From NCBI GenBank assembly GCA_964442455.1, contig CAYTZB010000006.1, positions 9,532-73,531 on the forward strand: a DNA stretch of 64,000 nt, written 5' to 3'. The notes beneath the pieces were generated by a model. It had not been told where the DNA came from. It ran no database searches and saw only the letters and a list, made by a program, of their open reading frames with translations. The position numbers were made by a program, and so were the translations under genes. Positions 8,391 through 28,642 of the stretch are shown here, in pieces; the stretch's first letter is position 1, and every line of letters starts with the position of its first letter. Origin of the DNA: an uncultured Gammaproteobacteria bacterium (GTDB lineage Bacteria; Patescibacteriota; Microgenomatia; UBA8517; JACQJR01).

Positions 8391-10912
8391 GGTTCCTCGG
8401 GTCTAGGGTTTCCGGTTTCGGTTTTTAGTTGTCGGTTTTCTGGTAAAGTTTCTGAGGGGCTTACACCTGGTACCTGATACCCTACTTGCGCAGGCAGGCC
8501 GACGCCTGATACCTGGGTTTGTGCCTGTTCTCTTGCTAAAACCTCTTCAGGTTTGGTTGTTACAAGTCCGTGTTCTTTATCTGAAGCGACGACTCGCATT
8601 GCGACATGGTGTGGCCCGGCAAAGAAAATTCCCTCCCCAATGTCTGAAGCAAGTATCAGTTGTTTTTCTCCTTCTGATAGGTGGAATACTTCGCCTACTC
8701 GGTCAAGCGCGCTCGGTGACTGTTTCATGAGGATACGAAGTGCTGCATTATTGACAATTGCGCGACCGATATCTTGAGAGAGAAAGTCTTCAACATCTTG
8801 AGTGATGGTTGAGAGTCCCAACCAATACTTTCTCGCGCGCTTGGCAATTGACCACAAAAAGAGGGCTGAGTCGGGGAAGCGCATGAGATGCCATGCCTCA
8901 TCCACTATAAGCAGTCGCTTTTTAATATCGCTCCTTATCCTTGTCCAAATAAAGTCAAGAACGATAAACATTGCAATGGGTCGGAGCGCTTCCTCTAAAT
9001 CACGAACTGAGAAAACAGTGAAGGGGCTTGTGATATCAACCGTGGTTGGTTGGTCAAATATACCCATAAAACTTCCCTTCACAAACTTCTCAATTCGGGC
9101 AGCAAGATTTGCGGCTTCCGGCTCTTCCATGCCAATGAATGCTTTATAAAGATCTTCCATAAGAGGAGGTTCTTTCGTGTGAGTTTCTGGGTCTGGGGTA
9201 ATGCCCTTTGCTTTATAGGTAAGTATCAGCGCTCGGTCTAATAGTGCTTCCTCGGTAGGAGCGAGCGCGCCCATAATGACCTTAAAGAGAGAGTGGAGTG
9301 AAAGCAGTTTGAGTGCCAGTTGATTTTCTCCAGGAGTTTGTACTGTTTGTGCCCCGAGCGCACTCATATCAAAGGGATTAATTTTACTTGGTGAACCAAA
9401 AGAGAAAGAAATAAACTGTCCGCCAACTGCGCCGCAGAGTGCTTTGTATTCGCTTTCTGGGTCAATAATAATAATTTCCGCTCCCAACATTAAGTAGCGC
9501 AGTGCTTCCAATTTAATAAAGTAGGATTTCCCACTCCCTGAAGTGCCAAAAATTGTAGCGTTGGGGTTCTCAAGCTTGAACCTGTCGAAGATAATGAGCG
9601 AGCCGTTATCCTCGTTAATACCATACATCACTCCTTCTTCTTGGGAAAGTTCTGCGGAGGTGAAGGGAAAGGTGGTGGCAAGAGAGCTTGTATCCATATT
9701 GCGGGTAATAGTAAGGGGATCAAACCCCAAGGGTAAGGTTGCAACGAGTCCGTCTTCTTGAGAAAGGCTTGCGGTCCTGACAGTGATAAGAAGAGCCCCA
9801 AGTGTTGATTGGACTTGTTTGGTAACGTTTTCGAGTTCTTCCAACGACGAGGCGGGAATGGTGATATAGAAGGCGAACTGAAAAAAACGTTCGGCGCCTT
9901 TCACTAATTGCTCCTGAAGTGAAAGTGCGTCTTCAAGTTTTGCTTGCGTGGAAGGATTTACGACGCGACCTCGTTGAACATCGGTTGAGATTTCCGCTTC
10001 CATCTCCGCAATTTTGCGCCGCAGGTCATCTAACACCGATTTCCCCTCAACAGGATAGATAAAGAGGGAAAGTGTTAGGGTATGGTCGAAATTGATAATG
10101 GGGTCAAGCCACCCCGCTGAGACAAAGCGGGGGTAACCGGAAACAAACAGTGTCCGATATAAGGTTCCATCTACAGTGAGGTGAGAGAAGTCGACCTCCA
10201 TTTGCGCAGGTGCGATAATGTCAATGACGCGTTCTCCCGCCGGAACGAGTGTTTCTACCTCGGATAACGTGGTTACTTTATATCTCGAAAGGAGTTTGTC
10301 TCGCTCGGCAGGATTATAAAGTTCAAGAAAAAGATCAATGAGTTCGTTGGTCGTCAATTGCTTAAGCTTTAAACCCAACCGTCCTGCTTGTCGAAGTATG
10401 TGGTCCCGTTTAGGATAGAGTGTTGTTTTCGCTTTTTTTATGATGTACGAGCGTGAATAGGGAAGTTGCTTTGACTTGCGTATGATGCCGCTCACCGCCT
10501 GTTTTACTCCTAACTCAAGCGACGAGAAGGGAATGACAATAAAGAATCGTTTGGACAGCACTCCCTTTTTTTTCACTGTTGAGGTGACAAATGCCTCATA
10601 TTCTTGCATCATCGCCAATATTCGAGGGTTTGTTTGCCGCGTGCGCGCTTCTTCTAGAAATGCAAGATAGCGCCCTATATCCTTTTTCTCGGAGCGCACC
10701 AGAATTTGTGCAGAAAATGAGAGAGAGTTTAGGAAAGCCGCGTACGCAAAGAGAATTGCTTCCTGCTCGCGTTCTGAAAGTAGAGAGAAGTTAAGCGAGG
10801 AGGACGCGAGAACGAGTGCCGCACCGCCATTTTTGAGAAGCACAATATCCTCAACAATGTCAGCAATAGGGAGGTGGTCTTGGGTTGTGGCAGTAATAGG
10901 TTGTATTTGCAT
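8387..10912 (-). CDS. virB4: Type IV secretion ATPase VirB4/TrbE/TraC family
   Basis: 841 aa. Walker A GTSGSGKSYF, Walker B LLIVDEAW. Size and domain order are typical of VirB4. Confidence 0.85.
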   Translation of the reverse strand: MQIQPITATTQDHLPIADIVEDIVLLKNGGAALVLASSSLNFSLLSEREQEAILFAYAAFLNSLSFSAQILVRSEKKDIGRYLAFLEEARTRQTNPRILAMMQEYEAFVTSTVKKKGVLSKRFFIVIPFSSLELGVKQAVSGIIRKSKQLPYSRSYIIKKAKTTLYPKRDHILRQAGRLGLKLKQLTTNELIDLFLELYNPAERDKLLSRYKVTTLSEVETLVPAGERVIDIIAPAQMEVDFSHLTVDGTLYRTLFVSGYPRFVSAGWLDPIINFDHTLTLSLFIYPVEGKSVLDDLRRKIAEMEAEISTDVQRGRVVNPSTQAKLEDALSLQEQLVKGAERFFQFAFYITIPASSLEELENVTKQVQSTLGALLITVRTASLSQEDGLVATLPLGFDPLTITRNMDTSSLATTFPFTSAELSQEEGVMYGINEDNGSLIIFDRFKLENPNATIFGTSGSGKSYFIKLEALRYLMLGAEIIIIDPESEYKALCGAVGGQFISFSFGSPSKINPFDMSALGAQTVQTPGENQLALKLLSLHSLFKVIMGALAPTEEALLDRALILTYKAKGITPDPETHTKEPPLMEDLYKAFIGMEEPEAANLAARIEKFVKGSFMGIFDQPTTVDITSPFTVFSVRDLEEALRPIAMFIVLDFIWTRIRSDIKKRLLIVDEAWHLMRFPDSALFLWSIAKRARKYWLGLSTITQDVEDFLSQDIGRAIVNNAALRILMKQSPSALDRVGEVFHLSEGEKQLILASDIGEGIFFAGPHHVAMRVVASDKEHGLVTTKPEEVLAREQAQTQVSGVGLPAQVGYQVPGVSPSETLPENRQLKTETGNPRPEEP

Positions 10913-10925: not shown

Positions 10926-12002
10926 CTATTGACTGGTCTCTACTGTCGGCTGAGTTCCTACTATACCCTGTAAACTGCCGACCGTTGACCCAGCGGCGCC
11001 TTTTGCCCTAATTTCAATTGGTGGGACAATTTCATTTTTTGCCATAAATTGGATAGGCTCAAATATTAATCCCTCCTTATCGGTAATAATCTCATACGTG
11101 CCCATGGGTAGGGGAGTTGCGGTTAAGAAATGACCAACTTTATTAGTGCGCAGTGCCCGCACCGGTCTTCCTTCACTATCTTTAATCTCGAGAATTGCTG
11201 CCTCAACCGTATTTCCCTCTGTATCAAGTACTTGTCCTACTACTACATTGGGGATTCTTGGCGCAGCAGGCGGTGCTGCTGAAATCTCAAATCGTGGTGC
11301 GTTTAAACGAGGGCGACCAGGACCTCTTTTCTGAGCGAAGATGGGGGTAACAGGGGTGGCAGGAGCGGGTGTAACCCCGGTAGTTGGAGGAGGCGTGGGG
11401 TAAAACAGTTGTGTAGGTGTTACCTGAGGGATGAGTTGGGGAGGTATCTCTTGCTCCACAATAATGCGCGGCCGCGCATTTGGTTGGGGTGTGGTTGGTT
11501 GTGCGCTCGGTTGCCCAGCTGTCTTTGTTAAATGAAAGAGAGAAAGCATCTTTTGAAAAAACGAGCGCTCTTCTTGTTCAAAAATTATTACTGCTTGCTC
11601 TTCCCCCTGGGCGGCACGAGCAAGGTACGCTTCTGCTGCTCCCTCTCCCTGCGGGGTGGCAGCGACCTCCGCTGCTCCCATTGGCGTTCCTTCTGGTGCA
11701 AAGAATTCCCGTGTCTTCCCCTGCTGCCATACGTACTTTGTCGGCGAATAAATAGCATGCAGAAATGCGAGAAACCACATAGAGAGCGGTCGTTCTTCAA
11801 TGGGAAGAAAGGCAAGTGCGACGCCCGCAAGCCCTGAAAACAGAATAAATGGCCACTTGATAATTCCAGGAAGCGGTGAAGCATAGAACAACAGTCCCAC
11901 GAGTGCTCCACCTGCAACCTGAAAGAACTGCCGCAACGTCATATCCCCTACGAGGTGGAATTCGTAGCTGGCGATATTTTGTGGCACGGGATGCTGTTGC
12001 AT
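10926..12002 (-). CDS. VirB3/PrgI-like two-TM N-terminus fused to a Pro-rich linker and C-terminal prealbumin/carboxypeptidase-regulatory-like beta-sandwich
   Basis: N-terminal roughly 100 aa with two hydrophobic helices, directly upstream of virB4 (VirB3 position). Pro-rich PTTPQPNARP...PPTTGVTPAPATP linker. C-terminal TDKEG..PMGTYEI resembles CarboxypepD_reg folds. Confidence 0.4.
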   Translation of the reverse strand: MQQHPVPQNIASYEFHLVGDMTLRQFFQVAGGALVGLLFYASPLPGIIKWPFILFSGLAGVALAFLPIEERPLSMWFLAFLHAIYSPTKYVWQQGKTREFFAPEGTPMGAAEVAATPQGEGAAEAYLARAAQGEEQAVIIFEQEERSFFQKMLSLFHLTKTAGQPSAQPTTPQPNARPRIIVEQEIPPQLIPQVTPTQLFYPTPPPTTGVTPAPATPVTPIFAQKRGPGRPRLNAPRFEISAAPPAAPRIPNVVVGQVLDTEGNTVEAAILEIKDSEGRPVRALRTNKVGHFLTATPLPMGTYEIITDKEGLIFEPIQFMAKNEIVPPIEIRAKGAAGSTVGSLQGIVGTQPTVETSQ

Positions 12003-16168: not shown

Positions 16169-17590
16169 TTATCCTCCTGCACCTGCCTGTCGAGCTCTCT
16201 GTACCAATTGCGCGAGATTGCCTAATGCTTGCTGTAACTGTGCTTGAACTTGGGGCAGTTGCAAAGGTACTCCCGCTCTTACTCCTAAGATTTGGTTTAT
16301 GAAATCTGGAATAGAAGGTAAAAGCATGACTGCACCTAATGCGATCATCCCTTTTATAATGTCGGCACCGCCCCCAATGTAAGGAGGTGCCCAAAGTGTT
16401 CCGCTTGCTTGGTCCACAAGCGTTATTAGTAAGTAAGTCAACCAAATAACAGTTCCTACAACAGGAAAAACCAAAAGATTCGCTGTTAACCCCCTTAACC
16501 ATCCACTCCAAATTCCCCCTCCACCAACGATGCCCCAAAGGATAAAAAGCGGTGCTAAAATTAAATGGAGTAAAAGGAGAAGATATGCTCTCGCGAGAGC
16601 AAAAAGCACACGAAAGAAGAAAAATATAATTGCGAGAATAAGACCAAGTAGGATTGGAAGTAAGCCAACTGCAACGCCTCCCAACGCTGCTCCTGGAACG
16701 ATGGCTATTAAAAGAGCTATGGCCCCCCCAATTATTCCACCTGTTGCAGCTGACAACACGGGTGCTGCTCCTGCTGCACCTTTAAGCAAATCCCATCCAC
16801 CAGTAAGCCCTTTACTAAATATAAATCCCGCTGTTTGACCAAATCCTGCTGTTGAGTATTCCTGATACCGAGCAACCGGGTCGTAGATACCTTGCAGGCC
16901 AAGTGAAGTAAGTCCAAACACTAATATTCCAAACCCCACATAGATGATGTCAATAAGAAAGCCAACGATTGCATAGGAAAAGGTTATTAGTATCAATGCT
17001 ATAATAATTCGTGGAAGTGCCGATTGAACCGTAATGACTGCTTGGGGCGAGATTCTGGTACGAAGCATGATAGCGAATCCAAATCCAATTGCTGCAAGGA
17101 CGAAGAGTAGGTAGGCTAAGTTTCTTACTGCCCGCCATGCCCGCAAGAATGGTTCAATCGCCCCAAATCCAAACCCTGCCTGTTGCGCATAGGCAGGTTT
17201 CACAATGTGAAGTCGCCCCCCAATATCAGCAAGATAGTTAAATCCTGAAGCCGGCGGATTGGTAATCATCCCCGCAATTGCAACACCCATTGTCGGAAGG
17301 GCACCTGTTGAAAAACTCGGGGGGCACGCTTCATAGTCAATTTTTCCATCACCATTGGTATCAATAACACAACCAAGTAACATTGTAGTTGCTCCTCCCA
17401 TTACTCCTGTCAAACTTTGAAAATCAAAACTTTCTTTATTATATTTATCTCCCGTGATGGCTTTTTGAAGGTCGCCTAAGGTTGGCGTAGGAGGCGTAGC
17501 ATAAGAGGGGGAAGTGGAAAAGAGAAAGAGAATTAAAAAAATGAGGGTTATAGAAAGTAAAACTTTCCAAATTTTGGGCAGGTTATACAT
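16169..17590 (-). CDS. VirB6/TrbL-like polytopic inner-membrane channel protein
   Basis: 473 aa. N-terminal signal/TM then an extracytoplasmic segment. At least 6 further TM helices rich in Gly/Ala/Ile. Sits between the lytic transglycosylase and the pilin genes. Confidence 0.55.
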   Translation of the reverse strand: MYNLPKIWKVLLSITLIFLILFLFSTSPSYATPPTPTLGDLQKAITGDKYNKESFDFQSLTGVMGGATTMLLGCVIDTNGDGKIDYEACPPSFSTGALPTMGVAIAGMITNPPASGFNYLADIGGRLHIVKPAYAQQAGFGFGAIEPFLRAWRAVRNLAYLLFVLAAIGFGFAIMLRTRISPQAVITVQSALPRIIIALILITFSYAIVGFLIDIIYVGFGILVFGLTSLGLQGIYDPVARYQEYSTAGFGQTAGFIFSKGLTGGWDLLKGAAGAAPVLSAATGGIIGGAIALLIAIVPGAALGGVAVGLLPILLGLILAIIFFFFRVLFALARAYLLLLLHLILAPLFILWGIVGGGGIWSGWLRGLTANLLVFPVVGTVIWLTYLLITLVDQASGTLWAPPYIGGGADIIKGMIALGAVMLLPSIPDFINQILGVRAGVPLQLPQVQAQLQQALGNLAQLVQRARQAGAGG

Positions 17591-17625: not shown

Positions 17626-19200
17626 TCAAGGGCTATTGTAATTTTCCCAAACGAATTCGCAATAAGTTCTATTACCTAATCTTGGGAAGCTGGTTTGGCA
17701 TTCTCCATAATAAGATTCAGCAGCTCTGGATACTTCCTCTTGAGTCCACTCTGCACCTATTGCTCCTGAGCTTGCCCCTAGCTTTTTACTTGCAGCATAT
17801 ACAGAGTCCTTTACATTACAAACATTTGATGTTCTATTTTCTCCTGCTGCCTCATTTACTGCATTGGCATAAGAAGACCAGACATCAGGCATGGGTTGGC
17901 CAGTATAATTTCCACAGCTTGCTGCAATACCATCATTGAGGAACTGCATTGGCCCTCGTGCTCCACAGCCGTTGGATTCACAATTGATTGGATCTTGACC
18001 TCCAGGTACAGAGTAGGTGGATATTTGGCCGTCAGAAAAACTCCACATGTGTCCTCCCTCAATCCACGCAACTGCTGCCAAAACACCCGCAGGAACATTA
18101 AAGGCGACAGAAGCTTGTCTTAATTGGGCTTCAAGTTGGGGAGATAGAGGATTACCGGTTAATTTAAAAATGCCTGTTCCTCCACTGGGGGGTAGAGGGG
18201 GTGTTTCGGGGATTGGGCGGAGAGGTTGTAATTCGGCAGGGTAAAGAGATTGTTGGAGGAGGACATAGCCCTTTCTCGCTCCAGCTACACCCAAGAAATT
18301 GAGTTCTTTTGTGGTTGAGGAACCATCGACAGCATAGGGAGTTTCTTCTTGTTCCCCTTCGCCCTTAGGGCAAATTTCTTCCGGACAAAAACTACGCAAA
18401 AATCCGGTTTCTTCTTTTGAGGCCTGCGAAAGAAATGCCCGCTCTCCCGGTAGAAATTTTTGTGGTTTAACCGTTACCGCAATTGTCGCTGATGCATTGA
18501 GAAGTTTACTCCACAGTCCGGTAAAAAAATCGACAATATTTCCTATAACTCCTGCCAGCGAGATGGTTGTGGTGTTTTGGGAAGGCGCGGGAACTATTTG
18601 TTTGCCCACTTGGCCCGTCAATTCCGGACAGTCAGGTAGTTGTTTATTCCCCTCCTCGTCCAGAGGAAGCGTTGGTTGAGGTGCGCTAAAATTGGTGCGC
18701 GAGGAGAAACCCGGAACTGCACTGGCTTGATTAAGCTTTGTCGCTCCCAAAAGTTTTGTCCAATAAGAGGGTGTCCTGACATCACTTGCGCCTTTCCCCT
18801 CTATTCTACCTGTCACTGAAGCACCTCCTGCATCAATATCGCAGACAGGATGAAATACTTTTCCGGAGAGTGTTGCTTCTGGGAGAGATAGGTTTTTAAG
18901 AAGTCCTTCGGGAAGGAGGTTGGGGAGGGCGTTCGTACTTACTTGCATTTCGCGAGTGAGGTTGGGAAATTTAAATTCATTTTGCACGACTCCTACATCA
19001 ATACCCTGCCCGCTTACATCTACTGCCCCACCAGTTTTGGTGACTTCCCGCGTCACATCAATGTCTTCTCCATAAGAGGGGTGTACACTGGTGTCGAGTG
19101 GTTCGGGAGTCGGAGTGGGCTCTTGGGCAAAGGCAGGAGCGGGATAAACAATAAACAATAAACAATAAACAAAAAATAGCGATAAGGGCAGGCGTAGCAT
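17626..19200 (-). CDS. Secreted protein with C-terminal lytic transglycosylase (SLT/VirB1-like) domain
   Basis: Signal peptide MLRLPLSLFFVYCLLFIVYPAPAFA. C-terminal AWIEGGHMW (catalytic Glu region), GARGPMQF (GxxGxMQ) and SYANAVNEAAG (AYNxG-like) motifs. Confidence 0.55.
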   Translation of the reverse strand: MLRLPLSLFFVYCLLFIVYPAPAFAQEPTPTPEPLDTSVHPSYGEDIDVTREVTKTGGAVDVSGQGIDVGVVQNEFKFPNLTREMQVSTNALPNLLPEGLLKNLSLPEATLSGKVFHPVCDIDAGGASVTGRIEGKGASDVRTPSYWTKLLGATKLNQASAVPGFSSRTNFSAPQPTLPLDEEGNKQLPDCPELTGQVGKQIVPAPSQNTTTISLAGVIGNIVDFFTGLWSKLLNASATIAVTVKPQKFLPGERAFLSQASKEETGFLRSFCPEEICPKGEGEQEETPYAVDGSSTTKELNFLGVAGARKGYVLLQQSLYPAELQPLRPIPETPPLPPSGGTGIFKLTGNPLSPQLEAQLRQASVAFNVPAGVLAAVAWIEGGHMWSFSDGQISTYSVPGGQDPINCESNGCGARGPMQFLNDGIAASCGNYTGQPMPDVWSSYANAVNEAAGENRTSNVCNVKDSVYAASKKLGASSGAIGAEWTQEEVSRAAESYYGECQTSFPRLGNRTYCEFVWENYNSP

Positions 19201-19203: not shown

Positions 19204-19608
19204 CTATTGAGTTACTCGAAATATTGTTACATCAACGCCGGTAAAGACGCTCACAAAACGCAGAATTAAAAACGCGGCGACAACAACGACAAAACCAATG
19301 AGCGCATAAGTTAAGGTTTGACGGGCTCCCTGGACTGCCTGTTGGTCGCCGCCGGCAGTCAAGTATTTAAATCCTCCAATAACAAGTATGACAAACAGTG
19401 CAATTCCCGCGGCCGCAAGGGAAACTGCAACAATATTAAAGAAAATAACTTCTAACCCTTTTAGCGTAGCAACGCCATCAGAAACAGCACCCGGAACATC
19501 TTCAAATTTTTTGGTTTGCGCAAGAACCGGCGAAGCCCCCAATAGACCAATAGCCAAATAACCCAATAGCCAAATAATTCTCATAGCTTCAGTGTAGCAC
19601 GAGTTCAT
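19204..19608 (-). CDS. VirB2/TrbC-like pilin paralog 1
   Basis: Signal/TM plus a second TM hairpin. Conserved GGFKYLTAGGDQQAVQGAR motif shared with six neighbours. Confidence 0.65.
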   Translation of the reverse strand: MNSCYTEAMRIIWLLGYLAIGLLGASPVLAQTKKFEDVPGAVSDGVATLKGLEVIFFNIVAVSLAAAGIALFVILVIGGFKYLTAGGDQQAVQGARQTLTYALIGFVVVVAAFLILRFVSVFTGVDVTIFRVTQ

Positions 19609-19643
19609 TTATTGAAGCAAGGGATGTTCAGCCAGTCGGAGAG

Positions 19644-20036
19644 TTAGGGTTGGAATTTTGGAATAGTGAGCTGGAGGATGTCAATACCAAAGAGTACGTT
19701 AACAAGCTGAATAATTGCCCAAGCCGCAAAGACAATTACAAGTCCGACAAGTGCTGCAGTAATTTGGCTTCTTGCTCCTTCAGTTGCTGTTTTATCGCCA
19801 CCGGACAAAATCCAGCGGATACCACCAATAACCAAGATAAAAAAGAATATCAGTGCCGCAATGACTAGGACTAAACGAATGAGGCCTGAAACAATGCTTG
19901 GGACAGTTAAGTTACCCAATGCTTGGAACTGTCCGCCTGGTTTGATGTTAATCACGTCTCCCTGTGCCAAAACCGGGAGTGCGGTTAATAAAAGAGCCCC
20001 ACCGCTTGCTGCAATTCCCTGGATAATTCGCTTCAT
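19644..20036 (-). CDS. VirB2/TrbC-like pilin paralog 2
   Basis: IGGIRWILSGGDKTATEGARSQIT motif. Two hydrophobic segments. Confidence 0.65.
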   Translation of the reverse strand: MKRIIQGIAASGGALLLTALPVLAQGDVINIKPGGQFQALGNLTVPSIVSGLIRLVLVIAALIFFFILVIGGIRWILSGGDKTATEGARSQITAALVGLVIVFAAWAIIQLVNVLFGIDILQLTIPKFQP

Positions 20037-20044
20037 TTGTATAA

Positions 20045-20380
20045 TTATCTCAATATTAATTTCCCAATGTCAAGAGTGAGAATGTTTACGCCAAAAAGTC
20101 CCTCAACAAGGGTTGCAAGTGCAAAAGCTGCAAAGACTATAAAAAGACCAATCAGGGCATTGGTTATGCGGGAACGAGCCGCTTCTACTTGTGTTTTGTC
20201 CCCTCCGGCTGTCATCCAGGAGATTCCACCAAGAAGTAAAACAAATAAAAACACTACGCCTGCAACTACAAGCACAAGAGTAATAAGCATTGGCAAAAAT
20301 TGTGCAGCAAATGCTTGGCCTGTTAAGTCTTTTATTCTCGGAGAAAGTATTGGATTTTCTATTACTTGTGCTAACTTCAT
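20045..20380 (-). CDS. VirB2/TrbC-like pilin paralog 3
   Basis: LLGGISWMTAGGDKTQVEAARSRIT. Start overlaps the next paralog's stop (ATGA). Confidence 0.65.
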   Translation of the reverse strand: MKLAQVIENPILSPRIKDLTGQAFAAQFLPMLITLVLVVAGVVFLFVLLLGGISWMTAGGDKTQVEAARSRITNALIGLFIVFAAFALATLVEGLFGVNILTLDIGKLILR

Positions 20381-20739
20381 GGCGAAATTAAAGGTAGAAC
20401 CTTTTCGATATTGAATATTGTTTCTATTCCAAGAAGCGCAGTTATAAGTCGGATGAAAAAGATTGCCAGTGCCACAATTGCAAGTCCAACAACAGCACTG
20501 GTTAATTTTCCTCTCGCTCCCTCTAACTTTGTTTTATCTCCTCCCGCAGCAAGCCACTGAAAACCAGCAAGTAGAACTTGGAAGGTAAACCATATACCTG
20601 CAACAATAGTCATAAAACCGATAATATTAGAAATTAACCGTGCAAATGTTGCAGGAGCATTTGTCGGGTCTCCAAGTGGACCAATTCCCCTAAATTCTTT
20701 ACCCAGAGGAATTTCTCTAAGTTGTGCTAAAAAAATCAT
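20377..20739 (-). CDS. VirB2/TrbC-like pilin paralog 4
   Basis: LAGFQWLAAGGDKTKLEGARGKLT. Confidence 0.65.
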   Translation of the reverse strand: MIFLAQLREIPLGKEFRGIGPLGDPTNAPATFARLISNIIGFMTIVAGIWFTFQVLLAGFQWLAAGGDKTKLEGARGKLTSAVVGLAIVALAIFFIRLITALLGIETIFNIEKVLPLISP

Positions 20740-20749
20740 AATAATATAT

Positions 20750-21088
20750 TCATTGTGGGCCGAAAATTCTTGGTTTTATAAGTATGGTTGGATCTTTAAA
20801 TATAATTTGGCCAAAGATAGCAGCTAGTACAAAAGCCCCTGCGATAAACAAAAGCCCAATCAGAGATTGCCAAATTCGTGCCCACGCTTTTTGCATGTTT
20901 TCTGGATTTCCGCCGGCAGAAATAAATTGAAAACCGGCAATAACAATATTAAAAAGCGCATACACCCCACCCACAACAATCAAAAGAAGGAGTATTGCGT
21001 TTAAGAATGTTACTAGCCCACCGCCAGTTAGTGGGCCGTAACGTTCAACTCCTGGTGGTGGTGCAACTTTACCAAAAATTTGCAGCAT
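20750..21088 (-). CDS. VirB2/TrbC-like pilin paralog 5 (divergent motif)
   Basis: IAGFQFISAGGNPENMQKAWARIW. Stop shares a base with the start of the next gene. Confidence 0.6.
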   Translation of the reverse strand: MLQIFGKVAPPPGVERYGPLTGGGLVTFLNAILLLLIVVGGVYALFNIVIAGFQFISAGGNPENMQKAWARIWQSLIGLLFIAGAFVLAAIFGQIIFKDPTILIKPRIFGPQ

Positions 21089-21405
21089 TATAATCCTCTT
21101 CCTCCTCCGAGAATATTTATTCCCGTTATTGCTTCAACTGCTTGAATTATCCAGTAACTGGCGAAAATAATCAAGAAACCTATAATTCCCGCAGTAATTG
21201 CCTGCCTTCCCTGGCCTGTTTTTTGCTGATCTCCACTACCTGCACCAATAATTATTCCCAATCCTCCAAAGACAATTAAAAAGAGAACTACAACTCCAGC
21301 AATAATATAGGCATTTGAAAGAATGACAGAAACGAGAGAACCAAAGTCCGCAAAAGGAGTTTTAAATACTTCTTCGCCAATTTTTACTTGGGCTATTTCT
21401 CTCAT
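21088..21405 (-). CDS. VirB2/TrbC-like pilin paralog 6 (start placed at the internal Met MREIAQ...)
   Basis: The ORF-track version (to 21498) overlaps the upstream paralog by 97 bp. The Met at 21405 gives an ATGA overlap with 21402-21761. Motif GIIIGAGSGDQQKTGQGRQAIT. Confidence 0.55.
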   Translation of the reverse strand: MREIAQVKIGEEVFKTPFADFGSLVSVILSNAYIIAGVVVLFLIVFGGLGIIIGAGSGDQQKTGQGRQAITAGIIGFLIIFASYWIIQAVEAITGINILGGGRGL

Positions 21406-21761
21406 TCTTCTCCCACGGAGGATGGTGGTCCTCCAAATTGAAATATATCTTGGATTTCCTTTATGCCGAATGCTACCCCTACCAGTTGTACGAGCCAATA
21501 TGCAACGAAGATAATTACAAATCCGACAATTGCGTTGGTAATTTTAGCTCGTGCCTCTTTCAGTACTCCCGGATCGCCTCCTGAAGTCATGAGTTGAAAT
21601 CCACCATAGAGGAGATAGAGGAGGAGCGCAAGACCCGCGATGACGAAAATATATTGGGTGGCAAGGAAAAGTACATCTCCTACTCCACCAGTAAGAGGGA
21701 AGCGAAATCCCGGTAGGGCATCTTGCAATTGGTTGAAATCAATAGCTTGTGCAAGCTGCAT
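21402..21761 (-). CDS. VirB2/TrbC-like pilin paralog 7
   Basis: LYGGFQLMTSGGDPGVLKEARAKIT. Confidence 0.65.
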   Translation of the reverse strand: MQLAQAIDFNQLQDALPGFRFPLTGGVGDVLFLATQYIFVIAGLALLLYLLYGGFQLMTSGGDPGVLKEARAKITNAIVGFVIIFVAYWLVQLVGVAFGIKEIQDIFQFGGPPSSVGEE

Positions 21762-21764
21762 ACG

Positions 21765-22820
21765 TTAGCCCCCAAATCCTGGTAGTTGTAAAATATCTAC
21801 CCCTATTAATCTTAACAAAAAGACAGAGAAAATGAGAAACAATAGACCACCAATTGCAGCGGTTAGCTGTTCCCGTCCCGCTTTTAGGCGTTCAGGATTG
21901 CCCGCTGAGGTCATAATTTGAAACCCGGACCACAGGATTAAAAGAAATGCAATTCCTCCCCCAATCCCTATTGCCCATCCCAAAAACCATTTTACGAATT
22001 CGGTGGTGTTCTCTACCGGGATACATCCGAACGCAGTGTAAATTCCCCTAGTCCCATTTGGACAGGCGGTAATTTGTGGTCCCCTTCCTGGCTCTCCTAT
22101 TGGACCTGACCCCGGTTGAATTCTTGGAGTGCCGGGTGGTCCTACCTTAAGTGGTATAATGCCGCATTCTTGGTATCTTTCAACATCTCTTATATCGTAT
22201 CCAGGGAGCGGAGCTCTTACATTTAATCCTACCCATATTTGGTAATTATCACTTGCAGGGGTAATTTTCCCAATAGTCACACTGAAGTTTCCACTATTAT
22301 CCGGTCTTGCGGCAAATATTCTCGTTTGCGGTCCTTCAAGTACCACCACATTGTTTGCGTTCACCGGTACACCTGTTCCGCTCACTGCGATATCAGTAGA
22401 AGTGTCTATTTCGTTTGGACTTATACTCAAGGTACACACACTCGTTCTACTCACAGTATAGGTATTTTGACACTCGAGACCACGCGGACCATGCAAGCTT
22501 ATCTTATGGGTACCCGTGGCAAATACTTCCCTATTTTTGAATGTGTATTCAATAGGTCCCCCGTTTGAGGTAATCTTGGGAGACCAGATATTGGTAGGAT
22601 GGAGAGGATTGTTTGGGATATCAACCTCAATTTGGTATCGTTCACCTGTATTGGTTGGCCCCATTCTGAACGTTACTTCGTCGTGTGTAGTTAAGAGTGG
22701 CTTTGGCTCGTACTCGAAAGTGGGACAGAGGGAAATTTGAGCATTAGCTAAATTTATTTTTGGGAGAACCAATGCAAAAATTCCTAACAAAAAAAGAGCA
22801 GAGAGGAAAGGTCTTTTCAT
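21765..22820 (-). CDS. Secreted 351-aa protein: N-terminal beta-rich domain fused to a C-terminal VirB2-like pilin module (candidate tip/minor pilin)
   Basis: Signal peptide. C-terminal FLLILWSGFQIMTSAGNPERLKAGREQLTAAIGGLLFLIF matches the motif of the seven pilins. First gene of the pilin operon. Confidence 0.55.
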   Translation of the reverse strand: MKRPFLSALFLLGIFALVLPKINLANAQISLCPTFEYEPKPLLTTHDEVTFRMGPTNTGERYQIEVDIPNNPLHPTNIWSPKITSNGGPIEYTFKNREVFATGTHKISLHGPRGLECQNTYTVSRTSVCTLSISPNEIDTSTDIAVSGTGVPVNANNVVVLEGPQTRIFAARPDNSGNFSVTIGKITPASDNYQIWVGLNVRAPLPGYDIRDVERYQECGIIPLKVGPPGTPRIQPGSGPIGEPGRGPQITACPNGTRGIYTAFGCIPVENTTEFVKWFLGWAIGIGGGIAFLLILWSGFQIMTSAGNPERLKAGREQLTAAIGGLLFLIFSVFLLRLIGVDILQLPGFGG

Positions 22821-22930: not shown

Positions 22931-24607
22931 ATGAGTTTGCGCCACTTAATTTTTTTGTTTTTTATTCCGCTTACAATAGTTTTTGCTAGTAGCGCAGTCG
23001 CTTCGCATTGTGGCAGTGATTTGCAGTGCCAGATTGATGAGATTCAAAAAGAAATTGATACACTAAAACCTGCTCATGAACGGAATGAACAAGAGTTAGT
23101 AGATTTACGAAAACAGATAGCGAGTATAAAGGCGCGCATTAACGGGATTAATAGCGAACTTTTACAACTTGAGAAAAGTATTGCACAACGGGAAGAGGAT
23201 TTGGGAGTACAGCAGGAATTACTAGAAGTCCGGGTACGCGCGCTCTACATCAGAAGTCGGCTCTATTCGCCTCTCATGGTATTCCTTGCCTCAACTTCTG
23301 CTTCTCAATTTACAAGAGAGCTGGCGCTTAGGCAACAGGTAACCAATGAGGATAGACGTATTATCGATGAACTCTCAGCAGAACTTACAAAACTCAATGA
23401 GGACAAAAAGACACTCCAAACCTCGCGGGCAGGTTTGGCAAGGCTCCAGCAGCAACTTGATGAGCGGGCGGGATTTTTGGCAAAAGAAGTAGAAAAGGTA
23501 GAGAGTTATCTTTCAAGTTTAACGGCAAAACAGCAAGAACTCGAAGCCTTAAAAGCCGGAGGATTTCAAACTTCAGTCGGTGATACCCCTCCCACACTTG
23601 AACCATGCTCCGGTCCACCCGGCACATCTGCCTTCTGTGATCCAGGTTTTAAACCAGCTTTTGGCGCGTTTTCATTTGGCGCTCCCCACAGAACAGGCAT
23701 GAGCCAATTTGGTGCTTACGGAAGGAGCAAACAAGGGCAGTCGGCAGAGCAAATACTTGCTGCGTACTATCAGGGAGCAAGCTTGCAAAAAGACTATCCG
23801 TCTCCCGACACGATTGGTGTTAATGGATACGGAAGGATTCCTTTTGAAGAGAACTACCTTTTGGGAATTTATGAGGTTCCTGAAAAGTGGGGAGATAATG
23901 GGGGTTTTGAGGCGCTTAAAGCTCAGGCAATTGCAGCGCGAAGTTTTGCGCTTGCAGTTACGAGTGGCGGTGCTGGCTCAATTTGTACGACTGAAGCTTG
24001 TCAAGTCTACAAACCCCAGCTCAAGAGTGGGAAGTGGGCAGAAGCAGTTCGGGCAACGCGAGGATGGGTATTGATCCGCGACGGTGCGCCAGCCAAGGCA
24101 TACTATGCCTCAACATCAGGTGGCTATACAATTTCACAGTGGGGATGGGGTGGTATTAAAGATACCGCAGGTGAGTGGCCAGACACTGCCTATGAGAAGA
24201 GTTCTGGCTCACCTTGGTTTTACAAAGGATGGTACAGAACACGGAGTGGTGCCACATGCGGAAGGAGCAATCCATGGCTTACGTCAGAAGAAATGGCTGA
24301 TATTCTGAACGCGTGGCACGTACTTTACAAAGGAGGTGGTGATGTCTCTCGGATTAGTCCTGTGACGACAAGTTGTTTCTCGGGAAATCCCTACTCTGTT
24401 TCTGAACTTGCCGGAATTGGCGGATACACGAGTGCGTCTTCGGCAGCGGTTATCTACAGCAATAGTGGTTCAACGCAATCCGTGAGTTTTTCAACCAATA
24501 AAGGAACATTAACTTTGTCTGGGGAAGAGTTTAAAAAAGCATTTAACCTGCGCGCCCCGGGTTATATAGGTCTTAAAAGTAGCTTGTTTAATATAGTTAA
24601 GCTATAA
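22931..24607 (+). CDS. Coiled-coil plus SpoIID/LytB-domain protein (peptidoglycan lytic transglycosylase/amidase enhancer)
   Basis: N-terminal TM and long coiled coil. SpoIID signature motifs LKAQAIAARSFA, TTEACQVY and YYASTSGGYT. Confidence 0.65.
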   Translation: MSLRHLIFLFFIPLTIVFASSAVASHCGSDLQCQIDEIQKEIDTLKPAHERNEQELVDLRKQIASIKARINGINSELLQLEKSIAQREEDLGVQQELLEVRVRALYIRSRLYSPLMVFLASTSASQFTRELALRQQVTNEDRRIIDELSAELTKLNEDKKTLQTSRAGLARLQQQLDERAGFLAKEVEKVESYLSSLTAKQQELEALKAGGFQTSVGDTPPTLEPCSGPPGTSAFCDPGFKPAFGAFSFGAPHRTGMSQFGAYGRSKQGQSAEQILAAYYQGASLQKDYPSPDTIGVNGYGRIPFEENYLLGIYEVPEKWGDNGGFEALKAQAIAARSFALAVTSGGAGSICTTEACQVYKPQLKSGKWAEAVRATRGWVLIRDGAPAKAYYASTSGGYTISQWGWGGIKDTAGEWPDTAYEKSSGSPWFYKGWYRTRSGATCGRSNPWLTSEEMADILNAWHVLYKGGGDVSRISPVTTSCFSGNPYSVSELAGIGGYTSASSAAVIYSNSGSTQSVSFSTNKGTLTLSGEEFKKAFNLRAPGYIGLKSSLFNIVKL

Positions 24608-27123: not shown

Positions 27124-27564
27124 ATGAAGATTATAAATCGTCGAGCGCCTTATGAGTATCAACTACAAGACCGTATTGAGGCGGGTATTTCGCTCTTAGG
27201 TAGCGAAGTAAAATCAATTAAAACAGGAAGAGCAGACCTTTCAGCAAGTATTGTTCGTATGAAAGATGGACAGGCATATTTGTTAAATGCAAATATTCCA
27301 CCTTATCAAGGTGGAGTGCCACAAGATTATAATCCCACCAGAACCCGCAAACTTCTCTTGAATAAAAATGAATTAATCTTTTTAGAAACCAAGGTAAAGC
27401 AGCAGAAATTGACAATTGTGCCTACAAAAGTGTATAGTAAAGGGCAACTAATTAAGGTCGAGATAGCTTTAGCAAAGCCAAAGCGTAAGTTCGAAAAACG
27501 CGAAGCAAAGAGAAGAAAAGATGTTGAAAGAGAAATAGAGCGAGAGTTAAAACCAAGGGGATGA
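27124..27564 (+). CDS. smpB: SsrA-binding protein SmpB
   Basis: Conserved SmpB core (GSEVKSI, TRTRKLLLNKNEL) and a basic C-terminal tail. Followed by tmRNA. Confidence 0.9.
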   Translation: MKIINRRAPYEYQLQDRIEAGISLLGSEVKSIKTGRADLSASIVRMKDGQAYLLNANIPPYQGGVPQDYNPTRTRKLLLNKNELIFLETKVKQQKLTIVPTKVYSKGQLIKVEIALAKPKRKFEKREAKRRKDVEREIERELKPRG

Positions 27565-27914
27565 TAGGTTTCGACGGGAAGCACCTTAACACCCAGGCAA
27601 GCTGAGTTTGGCTCACACTCACTAAACATAAGCCAAAACAAAAACGTCAACTATCCAAGTGGACGTCTAGCGTACGCAACAGCGTAAGCGCTAGCATCTG
27701 TATTGCGTTCTCCTGCGGTGCATTATGGGTGTAAAATAGCAGGATGCTCTTTAACTCTGGTTGATCAGCAGAGGTAAAGAAAAGACCTTCTGGTCTTACC
27801 CTAAAGATTAGTGTCAGCTCTCAAACTTTTGGGGGACACAAACTAACTGACTAAGCTTGTAATACTTGGGTGCTTAGGACTTTTCGGATCCGGGTTCAAC
27901 TCCCGGCATCTCCA
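27557..27914 (+). ncRNA. ssrA: tmRNA (SsrA), CCA not encoded
   Basis: 5' GGGGATGATAGGTTTCGACGGG matches the tmRNA 5' consensus. 3' GGATCCGGGTTCAACTCCCGGCATCTCCA is the T-arm plus acceptor, complementary to the 5' GGGGATG. Candidate tag ORF ...NYPSGRLAYATA ends at TAA 27685-27687. Begins 8 nt before the smpB stop. Confidence 0.8.
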
Positions 27915-27924
27915 CTTAAAATTA

Positions 27925-27953
27925 AAAGCCGGCTTACACGTCGGCTTTTTTCG
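27925..27953 (+). terminator. Rho-independent terminator after ssrA
   Basis: AGCCGGC-TTACACGT-CGGCT hairpin followed by TTTTTT. Confidence 0.6.
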
Positions 27954-27964
27954 TATACTAAAGC

Positions 27965-28642
27965 GTGAACTTTCTTGACCTTCTTTTTCCCAAAAGATGT
28001 GCTGGGTGCGGGAAATTTGGAGCTTACTTGTGCGAGGGGTGCCGCCAGTCTCAACCTCTTCATTTTCCTCAAATCTGCCCCGTGTGCGAGCGGCCGGCGG
28101 TTGATGGCAAAACCCATCCTGGATGCAAAACTCCCTTTAGCTTTGATGGCGCAACTTTTGTTCTCGTTTACCAACCACCAGTTTCTTTACTTATCAGGAG
28201 GCTTAAATACAATTTTGTCCGTGATCTGGCAGAAGCAGTTGTTTCCTGGACTACTGATGAATTAAAAAAACTTCGTTTTCCACAAGATTCTGTTCTTATT
28301 CCTATTCCTCTCCATCGTCTGCGTCGCAATTGGCGCGGATTCAATCAGGCGGAGATTTTAGGCAGGAAAATTGCCAAGGAAATGGGTTGGAACTTTAGAG
28401 ATGATATCTTGGTACGTTCTCAATTCCGCAAACCTCAAACAGAAGTCAAAGAGGCCAAGAAACGTCGCGAAAATGTTCGAGGAATTTTTTCAATTTCACC
28501 TAATAACCCAGTTACCCAATTACCCAGTAACCTAATTTTATTCGATGATGTCTGGACCACCGGTGCCACACTGAAAGAAGCGACAAAGGTGCTTAAAAGG
28601 AATGGAGCAAAATTCGTACACGCGCTGGCAATTGCAAGATGA
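27965..28642 (+). CDS. comFC: ComF family protein (ComFC-type phosphoribosyltransferase with N-terminal zinc ribbon)
   Basis: N-terminal C-x2-C...C-x2-C. PRTase motif LILFDDVWTTGATL. 225 aa. Confidence 0.8.
   Translation: MNFLDLLFPKRCAGCGKFGAYLCEGCRQSQPLHFPQICPVCERPAVDGKTHPGCKTPFSFDGATFVLVYQPPVSLLIRRLKYNFVRDLAEAVVSWTTDELKKLRFPQDSVLIPIPLHRLRRNWRGFNQAEILGRKIAKEMGWNFRDDILVRSQFRKPQTEVKEAKKRRENVRGIFSISPNNPVTQLPSNLILFDDVWTTGATLKEATKVLKRNGAKFVHALAIAR

What the first reader, a model, noticed from the sequence alone, without database searches (positions are those of the whole stretch)
19204..22820. Seven tandem VirB2/TrbC-like pilin paralogs plus a 351-aa protein ending in the same pilin module
All eight proteins share a C-terminal hairpin motif G-[FIL]-[QKRS]-[WYFL]-[LIM]-[TSA]-[AS]-GG-[DN]...[AG]R...[IL]..A.[IV]G followed by a second TM helix. 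Several are linked by ATGA or 1-bp overlaps. Eight pilin-module genes in one operon is unusual. The larger first gene, with an N-terminal beta-rich domain plus pilin module, looks like a tip or minor pilin that could mediate adhesion.
Basis: seen in the sequence. Interest (0 to 1): 0.65.

Follow-up and report, generated by a model that had tools for sequence, protein, structure and literature searches.

The report
Eight-gene T4SS pilin set of Microgenomates
This is the set of eight pilin-like membrane-protein genes in the type IV secretion locus of an ultrasmall (CPR/Patescibacteria) bacterium; such arrays are already published, but here the eight genes prove to be a fixed, ancient set whose first member carries a fast-changing surface domain.

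Summary
Eight minus-strand genes (19204-22820) each end in a two-helix hydrophobic hairpin. All eight hit Pfam PF18895 (T4SS_pilin), six of them above the gathering score.

The window comes from a Candidatus Microgenomates MAG. The array lies in a chromosomal, monoderm-type T4SS locus (VirB4, a PrgI/VirB3-like gene, a candidate VirB6) next to dnaA and dnaN.

Tandem arrays of 2-11 VirB2-like pilin genes in Patescibacteria, Microgenomatia included, are already published (PMC12102498). They are essential in Southlakia epibionticum (PMC10633639). Eight copies is therefore not unusual; it is the norm in this class.

I found three things that the papers I could search do not report:
- 49 loci carry exactly eight pilin genes. 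The best match in another locus sits at the same position in 85-100% of cases, so these are eight ancient, distinct subunits rather than a recent amplification.
- The 351-aa first gene encodes a signal peptide, two Ig-like domains, a Cys-bounded hairpin and the best-conserved pilin module. Its ectodomain is replaced outright in a relative that is about 90% identical at the DNA level.
- Conserved internal promoters precede genes 7 and 8, which suggests these are the abundant subunits.

No filament has been shown. The tip-adhesin and major-pilin roles are inferences.

The parts
21765..22820 (-). Position 1: large pilin, 351 aa. It has a signal peptide, two Ig-like beta-sandwich domains (about residues 30-226), a Pro/Gly linker, a Cys253...Cys266 beta-hairpin (GIxTAxGCIP) and a helical hairpin (residues 272-338).
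   Evidence: PF18895 at 30.0 bits. AlphaFold model with pLDDT 83. Foldseek hits to tandem Ig/FN3 domains. The TM module is 60-80% identical across genomes while the N-terminal part varies.
21402..21761 (-). Position 2: small pilin, 119 aa, no signal peptide, starts MQLAQ.
   Evidence: PF18895 at 37.8 bits. 90% same-position best hits across all 49 loci. The model is a helical hairpin, H27-59 and H64-97.
21088..21405 (-). Position 3: small pilin, 105 aa counted from ATG 21405, which overlaps the position-2 stop as ATGA.
   Evidence: PF18895 at 23.1 bits, just below the gathering score of 26.6. 95% same-position best hits. Junction sequence.
20750..21088 (-). Position 4: small pilin, 112 aa. The loop reads GGN...AW rather than GGD...AR.
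   Evidence: PF18895 at 27.5 bits. 100% same-position best hits with 57.6% mean identity.
20377..20739 (-). Position 5: small pilin, 120 aa.
   Evidence: PF18895 at 25.3 bits, just below the gathering score. 92% same-position best hits.
20045..20380 (-). Position 6: small pilin, 111 aa. Its last codons carry the promoter of position 7.
   Evidence: PF18895 at 32.3 bits. 85% same-position best hits. Promoter overlap shown.
20044..20073 (-). Sigma-70-type promoter for position 7: TTGACA, 18 nt, (TG)GATAAT. The -10 element contains the position-6 stop codon, and only 7 nt remain before the ATG, so the mRNA is leaderless or nearly so.
   Evidence: 11 of 12 consensus match with an extended -10. A match of at least 10/12 lies within 70 nt upstream of position 7 in 88% of the 49 loci, against 0-8% for the other positions. 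The motif persists in non-coding DNA where position 6 ends earlier.
19644..20036 (-). Position 7: small pilin, 130 aa, here with a lineage-specific signal peptide (MKRIIQGIAASGGALLLTALPVLAQ). Candidate major subunit.
   Evidence: PF18895 at 30.7 bits. 99.9% same-position best hits with 62.5% identity, the best-conserved small paralog. It has its own promoter. The signal-peptide extension occurs only in some lineages.
19591..19620 (-). Promoter-like element for position 8: TTGCTT, 18 nt, TACACT, then 6 nt before ATG 19584.
   Evidence: A relaxed promoter pattern is found upstream of position 8 in 34 of 49 loci, against 3-8 of 49 at other positions. The CTTGCT[CT] motif is in 22 of 49, against 0-2.
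19204..19608 (-). Position 8: small pilin. It is 134 aa as the longest ORF, and probably 126 aa from ATG 19584 (MRIIWLLGYLAIGLLGASPVLAQ...).
   Evidence: PF18895 at 34.3 bits. 99.4% same-position best hits. Start inferred from the promoter position.
17626..19200 (-). 524-aa secreted protein 3 nt downstream of the array. It may be a cell-wall hydrolase (VirB1-like role), but this is unproven.
   Evidence: Signal-peptide-like N-terminus. No Pfam or PDB sequence hit. Homologs in the same place in only 3 other fetched loci, two of which are the same sequence.
16169..17590 (-). 473-aa polytopic membrane protein, a candidate VirB6/PrgH-like platform.
   Evidence: Many hydrophobic segments. No Pfam hit. 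Conserved downstream of the pilin array in 35 loci.
10926..12002 (-). PrgI (VirB3-like) family protein with an extra C-terminal domain.
   Evidence: PF12666 PrgI at 26.1 bits against a gathering score of 27, E 1.2e-5.
8387..10912 (-). VirB4-type T4SS ATPase.
   Evidence: PF19044 P-loop_TraG at 102 bits, plus AAA_10 and DUF87.
22931..24607 (+). SpoIID-domain protein with an N-terminal coiled coil, transcribed divergently from position 1. It is an invariant neighbour of the array.
   Evidence: PF08486 SpoIID at 49.9 bits. Found directly upstream of the array in 71 loci.

Best explanation
The eight genes encode the pilin-like subunits of the chromosomal, monoderm-type (MPF_FATA-like) type IV secretion system of a Candidatus Microgenomates bacterium.

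Shown:
- Each protein ends in a VirB2/TrbC-style hairpin of two membrane helices joined by a short basic loop.
- The eight are ancient paralogs, each with a same-position ortholog across the class.
- Gene 1 adds a signal peptide and an exported ectodomain of two Ig-like domains. That ectodomain changes far faster than anything else in the locus.
- Genes 7 and 8 have their own conserved promoters.

Inferred mechanism:
- The subunits are inserted into the cytoplasmic membrane with both ends outside and the loop inside. Gene 1 would use Sec; the leaderless small ones would use YidC/Sec.
- The VirB4 ATPase and the VirB6-like platform then extract them and polymerise them into a heteromeric pilus or stalk that crosses the wall, helped by the neighbouring SpoIID-type and secreted wall-acting proteins.
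- Genes 1-6, which are translationally coupled and presumably low in copy, would form the tip or initiation complex, with the variable ectodomain of gene 1 contacting the host cell.
- Gene 7, perhaps together with gene 8, would supply the bulk shaft subunit.
- The structure would serve the host-dependent lifestyle through attachment and exchange or uptake of material, rather than plasmid conjugation.
For: Family and context:
- All 8 hit PF18895.
- 18 of 62 sequences in alignment A4 (window gene 2, its database relatives and the other window paralogs) also hit PF04956 TrbC/VirB2, best E 6e-6.
- VirB4 and a PrgI-like gene lie on the same strand 7-11 kb downstream. dnaA, dnaN and yidC are adjacent, as reported for Patescibacteria T4SS loci (PMC12102498).
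- The homologous six-gene array of S. epibionticum is essential (PMC10633639).

Fixed heteromeric set:
- 49 loci have exactly 8 pilin-module ORFs with the large one first.
- The best hit in another locus is at the same position in 85-100% of 2352 comparisons per position. Identity is 48-65% within a position, against 21-39% between the paralogs of this window.
- No nucleotide repeats link the paralogs.

Topology:
- Two hydrophobic helices are present in all 8.
- K/R density is 2.1-3.7 per 12-residue loop, against 1.3-2.1 per 30-residue N-tail and 0.4-0.9 in the C-tail.

Exposed, variable gene 1:
- The model has pLDDT 83 and shows a signal peptide, two beta-sandwiches, a Cys hairpin and a helical hairpin, with Ig/FN3-type fold matches.
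- Contig L082 is 89-92% identical in DNA across about 8 kb, but the ectodomain-coding stretch (window 21978-22797) is replaced by unrelated sequence. The last ~70 residues of the protein are identical.
- In other close pairs the ectodomain is 21-38% identical while the small pilins are 82-90% identical.

Expression asymmetry:
- A conserved promoter precedes gene 7 in 88% of loci, against 0-8% for the other positions. It is retained as DNA even where it is non-coding.
- A promoter pattern precedes gene 8 in 34 of 49 loci.
Against: - No filament has been seen in any Microgenomates, and no expression or proteome data were available.
- Sequence searches of solved structures found no conjugative pilin.
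- Foldseek with the small-pilin model gave only non-significant generic helical hairpins. That model is of modest quality (pLDDT 68).
- hhalign of the family profile against Agrobacterium VirB2 was not significant (probability 0.3%, E 0.19).
- None of the eight window proteins hits PF04956 at E <= 0.1.
- Five of the eight lack a signal peptide, unlike classical VirB2/TrbC/TraA propilins.
- The promoters are consensus matches supported by conservation, not mapped transcription starts.
- The assignments of tip, minor and major roles rest on analogy with type IV pili and VirB2/VirB5.
Confidence: 0.6

Rival explanations
1. The paralogs are interchangeable major pilins. The cell switches or mixes them for antigenic variation or to adapt to different host strains, as proposed for Bartonella and Anaplasma VirB2 paralogs and suggested for Patescibacteria.
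For: PMC12102498 proposes this. It notes about 25% identity within arrays. Paralogs within the window are indeed only 21-39% identical.
Against: - Each position has a 1:1 same-position ortholog across 49 loci (85-100% of best hits, 48-65% identity).
- Number and order are fixed at eight.
- There are no DNA repeats that could drive recombination among the paralogs.
- The small pilins are 82-92% conserved between close relatives, whereas only the gene 1 ectodomain varies.
- So the variation sits in one ectodomain, not in the choice of paralog.
Confidence: 0.1
2. The hairpin proteins never leave the membrane. They form a hetero-oligomeric ring or channel component of the T4SS inner-membrane complex, in the manner of VirB3/PrgI-type or c-ring-like small subunits. 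Gene 1 would then be a membrane-anchored surface adhesin rather than a pilus tip.
For: - Monoderm T4SSs are generally pilus-less (PMC12102498, PMC12857230).
- There are no significant structural or sequence matches to solved pilins.
- Five of the eight have no cleavable leader.
- A fixed stoichiometric set of eight fits a defined complex at least as well as a filament.
Against: - The family is assigned to T4SS pilins by Pfam, and a subset hits TrbC/VirB2.
- The separate strong promoter for gene 7 suggests one subunit is needed in large excess, as for a polymer.
- A roughly 250-residue variable ectodomain on a flexible Pro/Gly linker is a typical distal adhesin.
Confidence: 0.22
3. They are unrelated small membrane proteins (holin-like, or generic DUF hairpins) that resemble pilins only through hydrophobic composition.
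For: Weak Pfam co-hits to unrelated membrane families such as TctB, Cyt_bd_oxida_II and Bac_rhodopsin show that composition contributes to the scores. PDB profile hits are spurious GPCR and rhodopsin helices.
Against: - PF18895 is the top hit for all 8 and for all 62 sequences in alignment A4.
- The non-hydrophobic loop motif GGD...AR is conserved.
- Linkage to a VirB6-like gene is conserved in 35 loci, and to PrgI and VirB4 where the flanks reach that far.
- The homologous array lies inside the essential T4SS cluster of S. epibionticum.
Confidence: 0.03

Closest known systems
VirB2-like pilin arrays of Patescibacteria T4SS (Quinonero-Coronel et al. 2025, PMC12102498; the S. epibionticum SEML1_0014-0019 array, Wang et al. 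2023, PMC10633639)
   Same: - Same Pfam family (PF18895).
- Tandem arrangement with low identity between paralogs.
- Location in a chromosomal MPF_FATA-like T4SS locus without an obvious relaxase, close to dnaA.
- Microgenomatia are named as a class rich in such arrays.
   Different: - The S. epibionticum array has six genes; here there are eight.
- The papers I could search describe the paralogs as variable, possibly for host adaptation.
- They do not report what I found in Microgenomatia: a fixed eight-member set with positional orthology, a large first member with a swappable Ig-like ectodomain, or internal promoters for members 7 and 8.
VirB2/TrbC/TraA conjugative pilins of diderm T4SS (for example Agrobacterium VirB2, Pfam PF04956)
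   Same: - Small proteins with two hydrophobic helices and a short basic connecting loop.
- Predicted topology with both ends out.
- Encoded with VirB3, VirB4 and VirB6-type genes.
- 18 of 62 sequences in alignment A4 hit PF04956.
   Different: - There is no significant direct similarity to A. fabrum VirB2 or to any solved pilin.
- Most members lack the long cleaved leader.
- There are eight distinct subunits instead of one major pilin.
- The host is a monoderm.
- No VirB5 is present.
Major plus minor pilin sets of type IV pili and T2SS pseudopili (PilA with FimU/PilVWXE and PilY1; GspG with GspHIJK)
   Same: The logic is similar: several divergent paralogs with one shared membrane-anchoring module, a low-copy initiation or tip complex carrying an adhesin, and one abundant shaft subunit that may have its own expression signals.
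   Different: - The fold and machinery are unrelated.
- No class III signal peptide (G|F-x-x-x-E) is present in any of the eight (sequences).
- Assembly would depend on VirB4 rather than a PilB-type ATPase.
- This is an analogy only, not membership.
NCBIfam NF045849, Mbov_0395 family pilin-like conjugal transfer protein of Mycoplasma ICEs
   Same: It is another pilin-like two-helix protein in a wall-less or monoderm MPF_FATA-type system. Seven of the eight window proteins give sub-threshold hits (best 36.8 bits).
   Different: All scores are below the curated cut-off of 40 bits. The Mycoplasma ICE protein is described as one family rather than an array; that it is single-copy is from my own knowledge and was not tested here.

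Membership tests
Pfam PF18895 T4SS_pilin | HMM score at or above the gathering score of 26.6 bits | tested here: met
   Six of the eight are above it (27.5-37.8 bits). Two are just below (25.3 and 23.1 bits), but PF18895 is still their best hit. All 62 sequences in alignment A4 (gene 2, its relatives and the other window paralogs) match at E <= 0.01.
Patescibacteria T4SS VirB2-like pilin array (PMC12102498) | Two or more pilin genes in tandem, or separated by one non-pilin gene, in a genome that carries VirB4 | tested here: met
   Eight contiguous pilin genes at 19204-22820. VirB4 lies at 8387-10912 on the same strand. The organism is Candidatus Microgenomates.
TrbC/VirB2 pilins (Pfam PF04956) | Detectable sequence homology to the TrbC/VirB2 family | tested here: inconclusive
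   No window protein hits PF04956 at E <= 0.1. 18 of 62 sequences in alignment A4 do, with best E 6e-6. hhalign against A. fabrum VirB2 gives probability 0.3% and E 0.19, although the helices align in register.
TrbC/VirB2 pilins (Pfam PF04956) | Cleaved N-terminal signal peptide on the propilin | tested here: not met
   Only genes 1, 7 and 8 have an N-terminal hydrophobic leader. The class-wide consensus of positions 2-8 has none. Assessed from hydropathy only; no SignalP was available.
TrbC/VirB2 pilins (Pfam PF04956) | Two hydrophobic helices joined by a short basic loop, with both termini outside | tested here: met
   Hydropathy. Helices 27-59 and 64-97 in the gene 2 model and 272-304 and 309-338 in the gene 1 model. 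K/R residues are enriched in the loop.
TrbC/VirB2 pilins (Pfam PF04956) | Polymerises into an extracellular, lipid-bound pilus | not testable with these tools
   This needs microscopy or biochemistry. Foldseek against solved pilus structures gave no significant match.
NCBIfam NF045849 Mbov_0395 pilin-like conjugal transfer protein | Score at or above the curated cut-off of 40 bits | tested here: not met
   Best score 36.8 bits (gene 2). The others score 15.6-26.3 bits or give no hit.
Type IV pilins (T4P/T2SS) | Class III signal peptide with G|F/M-x-x-x-E and a single N-terminal hydrophobic helix | tested here: not met
   No such motif at any N-terminus. The hydrophobic helices are C-terminal and paired (sequences).
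MPF_FATA-like monoderm T4SS locus | VirB4 ATPase plus PrgI/VirB3-like and VirB6/PrgH-like membrane proteins, without diderm outer-membrane core genes | tested here: inconclusive
   VirB4 is clear at 102 bits. PrgI scores 26.1 bits against a gathering score of 27. The VirB6 candidate (473 aa, polytopic) has no HMM hit. The CONJScan profiles that define MPF classes were not available.
Diversity-generating retroelement target | A variable repeat in the target gene paired with a nearby template repeat and reverse transcriptase | tested here: not met
   No repeat involving 21765-22820 anywhere in the 64-kb window. The ectodomain differs from L082 by wholesale replacement, not by point changes at adenines.

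The most novel reading that the evidence does not exclude
The eight proteins build an obligately heteropolymeric, ordered T4SS filament in a monoderm. Gene 1 would be a tip adhesin with an exchangeable Ig-like ectodomain that sets host range. Genes 2-6 would be five minor adaptor pilins, and genes 7 and 8 one or two separately transcribed shaft pilins. That would be the first conjugative-type pilus with a minor-pilin architecture like that of type IV pili. It would also give a concrete handle on how CPR epibionts recognise and tap their hosts.
Probability: 0.3. Interest if true: 0.75.

Novelty: new member of a known kind. Interest (0 to 1): 0.45.

Why it matters
The role of the T4SS in Patescibacteria is described as 'completely unknown' (PMC11665869), even though the system and its pilin array are essential in the one species tested (PMC10633639). 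This window adds no new kind of element. The comparison it prompted does turn a vague 'variable pilin array' into a specific, testable model: eight non-redundant subunits in fixed order, one with a host-facing cassette-like ectodomain, and one or two with their own promoters. That tells experimenters which paralog to tag as the likely shaft (position 7). It also tells them which domain to swap to test host specificity (the position 1 ectodomain), and that single deletions should not be compensated by other paralogs.

Tried and rejected
1. Sequence search of all PDB chains with the eight-module profile and with a 62-sequence profile returned only spurious membrane-helix hits and no pilin.
2. 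Foldseek of the small-pilin model against the PDB gave nothing below E 0.6, only generic helical hairpins such as T3SS needle proteins. This fold is too simple for the test to be informative.
3. hhalign of the family profile against Agrobacterium VirB2, fetched from pTiC58, was not significant.
4. I considered a DGR or other repeat-driven mechanism for the gene 1 variability. No variable-repeat/template-repeat pair or other repeat touches the array.
5. The generic promoter and terminator scan of 15.9-23.1 kb was not enriched over shuffles (15 against 11.7±3.1; 11 against 7.9±3.3). Only the cross-genome conservation made the gene 7 and gene 8 promoters credible.
6. No conserved terminator hairpin was seen between genes 7 and 8. 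The folds are weak in most loci, and a few lineages have strong hairpins.
7. A PDB sequence search with the C-terminal 224 residues of the 524-aa downstream protein found nothing. Its lytic-transglycosylase look is unconfirmed.

Full report
**Observation.** The region 19204-22820 holds eight consecutive minus-strand ORFs of 351, 119, 105 (136 from an upstream TTG), 112, 120, 111, 130 and 134 aa.
- Genes 2/3 and 5/6 overlap by ATGA, and genes 3/4 overlap by 1 bp. The other junctions among genes 1-6 are gaps of 3-10 nt.
- The eight C-terminal modules align over about 95 residues at 21-39% identity with three invariant glycines. The consensus is GGFQxxTAGGDxxxxxxARxxITxALIGLxIVFAA.
A loosened form fits all eight.
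- Hydropathy shows two helices of about 20-25 residues in each protein. Only genes 1, 7 and 8 have an N-terminal signal-peptide-like segment. The other five begin M-x-x-[LI]-A-Q.

**Identity.** All eight have Pfam PF18895 (T4SS_pilin) as their best hit.
- Six exceed the gathering score of 26.6 bits, and two fall just short at 25.3 and 23.1 bits.
- NCBIfam gives only sub-threshold hits to the Mycoplasma ICE pilin-like family NF045849.
- The 351-aa protein is 100% identical to HYV21_00995 of a Candidatus Microgenomates MAG.

**Genomic context.**
- Downstream on the same strand lie a 524-aa secreted protein, a 473-aa polytopic membrane protein, a PrgI/VirB3-like protein (26.1 bits against a gathering score of 27) and a VirB4 ATPase (P-loop_TraG, 102 bits).
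- dnaN, dnaA and yidC follow directly.
- A SpoIID-domain gene is transcribed divergently from gene 1.
- This is the origin-proximal, monoderm-type T4SS locus described for Patescibacteria (PMC12102498).

**What is already known.**
- PMC12102498 reports 441 VirB2 arrays of 2-11 pilin genes in 383 assemblies. They are especially common in Microgenomatia and Saccharimonadia, with about 25% identity within arrays. The authors suggest the variety may aid adaptation to different host strains.
- Wang et al. 2023 found the pilin series inside the essential T4SS cluster of S. epibionticum. Their tables list SEML1_0014-0019 as six PF18895 proteins, all essential.
- A 2025 review calls these systems unique among monoderms for their potential to make conjugative pili.
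- The headline of the finding is therefore a known kind, and 'eight is unusual' is not correct for this class.

**Eight is a fixed set.** I used an alignment of the large protein's homologs to fetch 80 loci from species-representative genomes (Woese-, Blackburn-, Gottesman-, Shapirobacteria and others). I then scanned all their ORFs with an HMM built from the eight window modules.
- 49 loci, counting the window, have exactly eight hits on one strand with the largest first. Most of the rest are truncated contigs, or arrays split 2+6 by a 4-9 kb insert.
- Using only the last 110 residues, the best BLASTP hit of each protein in every other locus lies at the same ordinal position. The rates are 100, 90, 95, 100, 92, 85, 99.9 and 99.4% for positions 1-8.
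- Same-position identity is 48-65%, well above the 21-39% between this window's own paralogs.
- No nucleotide repeats link the paralogs.
- The flanks are equally conserved: SmpB, an NHL-repeat protein, a bPH protein and SpoIID upstream in 57-71 loci, and the 473-aa membrane protein downstream in 35.
- The duplications are therefore ancient, and each paralog is kept as a distinct gene. This argues against interchangeable antigenic variants.

**The large first gene.** A 59-sequence alignment gave an AlphaFold model with mean pLDDT 83.
- It shows a signal-peptide helix, two beta-sandwich domains (about residues 30-125 and 127-226), a low-confidence Pro/Gly linker, a small beta-hairpin bounded by the conserved Cys253 and Cys266 (GIxTAxGCIP), and a helical hairpin at 272-304 and 309-338.
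- Foldseek matches are generic tandem Ig/FN3 domains from adhesion receptors, transglutaminase C-terminal domains and the SiiE adhesin.
- Across 483 database homologs of 190-530 aa, the last ~100 residues are 60-80% identical while the N-terminal part is unalignable.
- The sharpest case is contig L082 (Logan SRR22388223). It is collinear with the window at 89-92% DNA identity over about 8 kb, except that window 21978-22797 is replaced by about 540 bp of unrelated sequence. The two proteins share an identical final ~70 residues and unrelated ectodomains.
- Other close pairs repeat the pattern. For L011/L012, L053/L077 and L008/L016 the small pilins are 90, 86 and 82% identical and the position-1 TM module is 96, 92 and 81% identical, but the ectodomain is only 33, 38 and 21% identical.
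- An exported domain that turns over rapidly on a highly conserved anchor is what one expects of a host-contacting adhesin. No DGR-type repeats explain the turnover.

**Expression signals.** A generic promoter scan was not enriched overall. Its best hit was TTGACA-18-(TG)GATAAT at 20073-20044, ending 7 nt before the gene 7 ATG.
- Across the 49 loci, a match of at least 10/12 lies within 70 nt upstream of position 7 in 88%. The figure is 0-8% for every other position.
- In most genomes the -35 element overlaps the Leu-Asp-Ile codons of position 6, and the -10 element contains its stop codon.
- Where position 6 ends earlier, the same DNA motif (CTTGACA...ATTCAATAATAT) sits in the non-coding gap. 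It is therefore conserved as DNA rather than through coding constraint.
- Lineages without the motif have strong Shine-Dalgarno sequences instead.
- Position 8 has a second conserved element (CTTGCTC...TAnAAT) in 34 of 49 loci, against 3-8 of 49 elsewhere. In the window it is TTGCTT-18-TACACT at 19620-19591. This implies that the real start is ATG 19584, which gives a clean signal peptide MRIIWLLGYLAIGLLGASPVLAQ.
- Genes 1-6 are thus translationally coupled behind the divergent SpoIID/gene 1 region, while genes 7 and 8 have their own near-leaderless promoters.
- Position 7 is also the best-conserved small paralog. It is my candidate for the abundant subunit.

**Topology and kinship to classical pilins.**
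- K/R density is highest in the inter-helix loop: 2.1-3.7 per 12 residues, against 1.3-2.1 per 30-residue N-tail and under 1 in the C-tail. This predicts that both ends are outside and the loop is inside, as for VirB2 and TraA, and it fits the exported gene 1 ectodomain.
- Direct homology to classical pilins is weak. No window protein hits PF04956, though 18 of 62 sequences in alignment A4 do, with best E 6e-6.
- hhalign against A. fabrum VirB2 aligns the helices in register but is not significant.
- PDB sequence searches and Foldseek with the small-pilin model (pLDDT 68) find no pilin.
- I therefore file these genes in PF18895 and the Patescibacteria pilin arrays. The relation to VirB2 is a superfamily-level likeness, and pilus formation is untested.

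**Mechanism.** The points marked 'shown' in the best explanation are the family, context, orthology, ectodomain variability and promoter conservation. The rest is inferred, as follows.
- Membrane insertion is by Sec/YidC.
- The VirB4/VirB6-like machinery extracts the subunits and polymerises them into a heteromeric wall-spanning pilus or stalk.
- Genes 1-6 form a low-copy tip or initiation complex that carries the variable adhesin.
- Gene 7, perhaps with gene 8, forms the shaft.
- The main rival, at about 0.2, is that the hairpins stay in the membrane as a fixed hetero-oligomeric part of the channel, with gene 1 as an anchored adhesin.
- The published idea of interchangeable variants gets about 0.1, given the positional orthology.

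**Verdict.**
- The element is a new member of a known kind.
- Interest is moderate. The array itself is ordinary for this class. The fixed eight-subunit architecture, the cassette-like ectodomain and the internal promoters were not in the papers I could search, and they give a testable model for a system whose function is an open question.

Noticed in passing
window 20044-20073 (-) and 19591-19620 (-): Conserved sigma-70-type promoters lie immediately upstream of pilin genes 7 and 8, with only 6-7 nt before the ATG, so the mRNAs are near-leaderless. The gene 7 promoter is embedded in the last codons and stop codon of gene 6. It is present in 88% of 49 related loci, against 0-8% for the other positions.
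   Followed up: yes
window 19582-19608 (-): The longest-ORF start of pilin gene 8 (ATG 19608) lies inside the spacer of its own predicted promoter. ATG 19584 is the more likely start. Likewise gene 3 should start at ATG 21405, not TTG 21498.
   Followed up: partly
L082:6413-6954 versus window 21978-22797: A Logan contig (SRR22388223) about 90% identical to the window over 8 kb carries a completely different ectodomain-coding segment in the first pilin gene. The flanks, including the two TM helices, are near-identical. This looks like cassette replacement.
   Followed up: yes
window 1137-5536: yidC (1137-1943, -), dnaA (2891-4291, +) and dnaN (4439-5536, +) lie directly beside the T4SS genes, so the locus is next to the replication origin. 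An AT-rich repeat at 2734-2786 may belong to oriC.
   Followed up: partly
window 16169-17590 (-): A 473-aa polytopic membrane protein with no Pfam hit is conserved downstream of the pilin array in 35 loci. It is a candidate for the divergent VirB6 that PMC12102498 reports as scarce in Microgenomatia.
   Followed up: partly
window 13746-16151 (+): An 801-aa, highly charged (E/R/K-rich) cytoplasmic protein with no Pfam hit lies on the opposite strand inside the T4SS locus. This stretch has the strongest GC skew in the window (0.33). A homolog occupies the same place in L001.
   Followed up: no
window 12022-12064, 31385-31463, 50594-50674, 51852-51932, 56780-56822: An AT-rich intergenic motif (AATTAACCTAATTGACCTAATT / TCTAATTTCTAA) recurs at five or more intergenic sites, including the region upstream of the PrgI-like gene. 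It may be a shared regulatory or promoter element.
   Followed up: no
window 27557-30850: A tmRNA gene lies next to smpB, followed by a cluster of four tRNA-Ser and two tRNA-Arg genes. Three 36-nt tandem repeats sit at 29528-29635. Several 'ORFs' listed in this stretch merely overlap these RNA genes.
   Followed up: partly
L001:11804-12954 (also L002, L011, L012, L016): In some relatives one or two unrelated genes are inserted between pilin genes 2 and 3. In L001 these are an Avd-like / 23S rRNA IVP four-helix protein and a prenyltransferase. In Gottesmanbacteria-type loci the array is split 2+6 by 4-9 kb.
   Followed up: partly
window genes 7 and 8: Signal peptides on positions 7 and 8 occur only in some lineages. 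Where they are absent, the protein starts M-x-N-L-L-A, which aligns with the C-terminal end (..PVLAQ) of the signal peptide in the lineages that have one. This suggests repeated loss or gain of the leader.
   Followed up: partly
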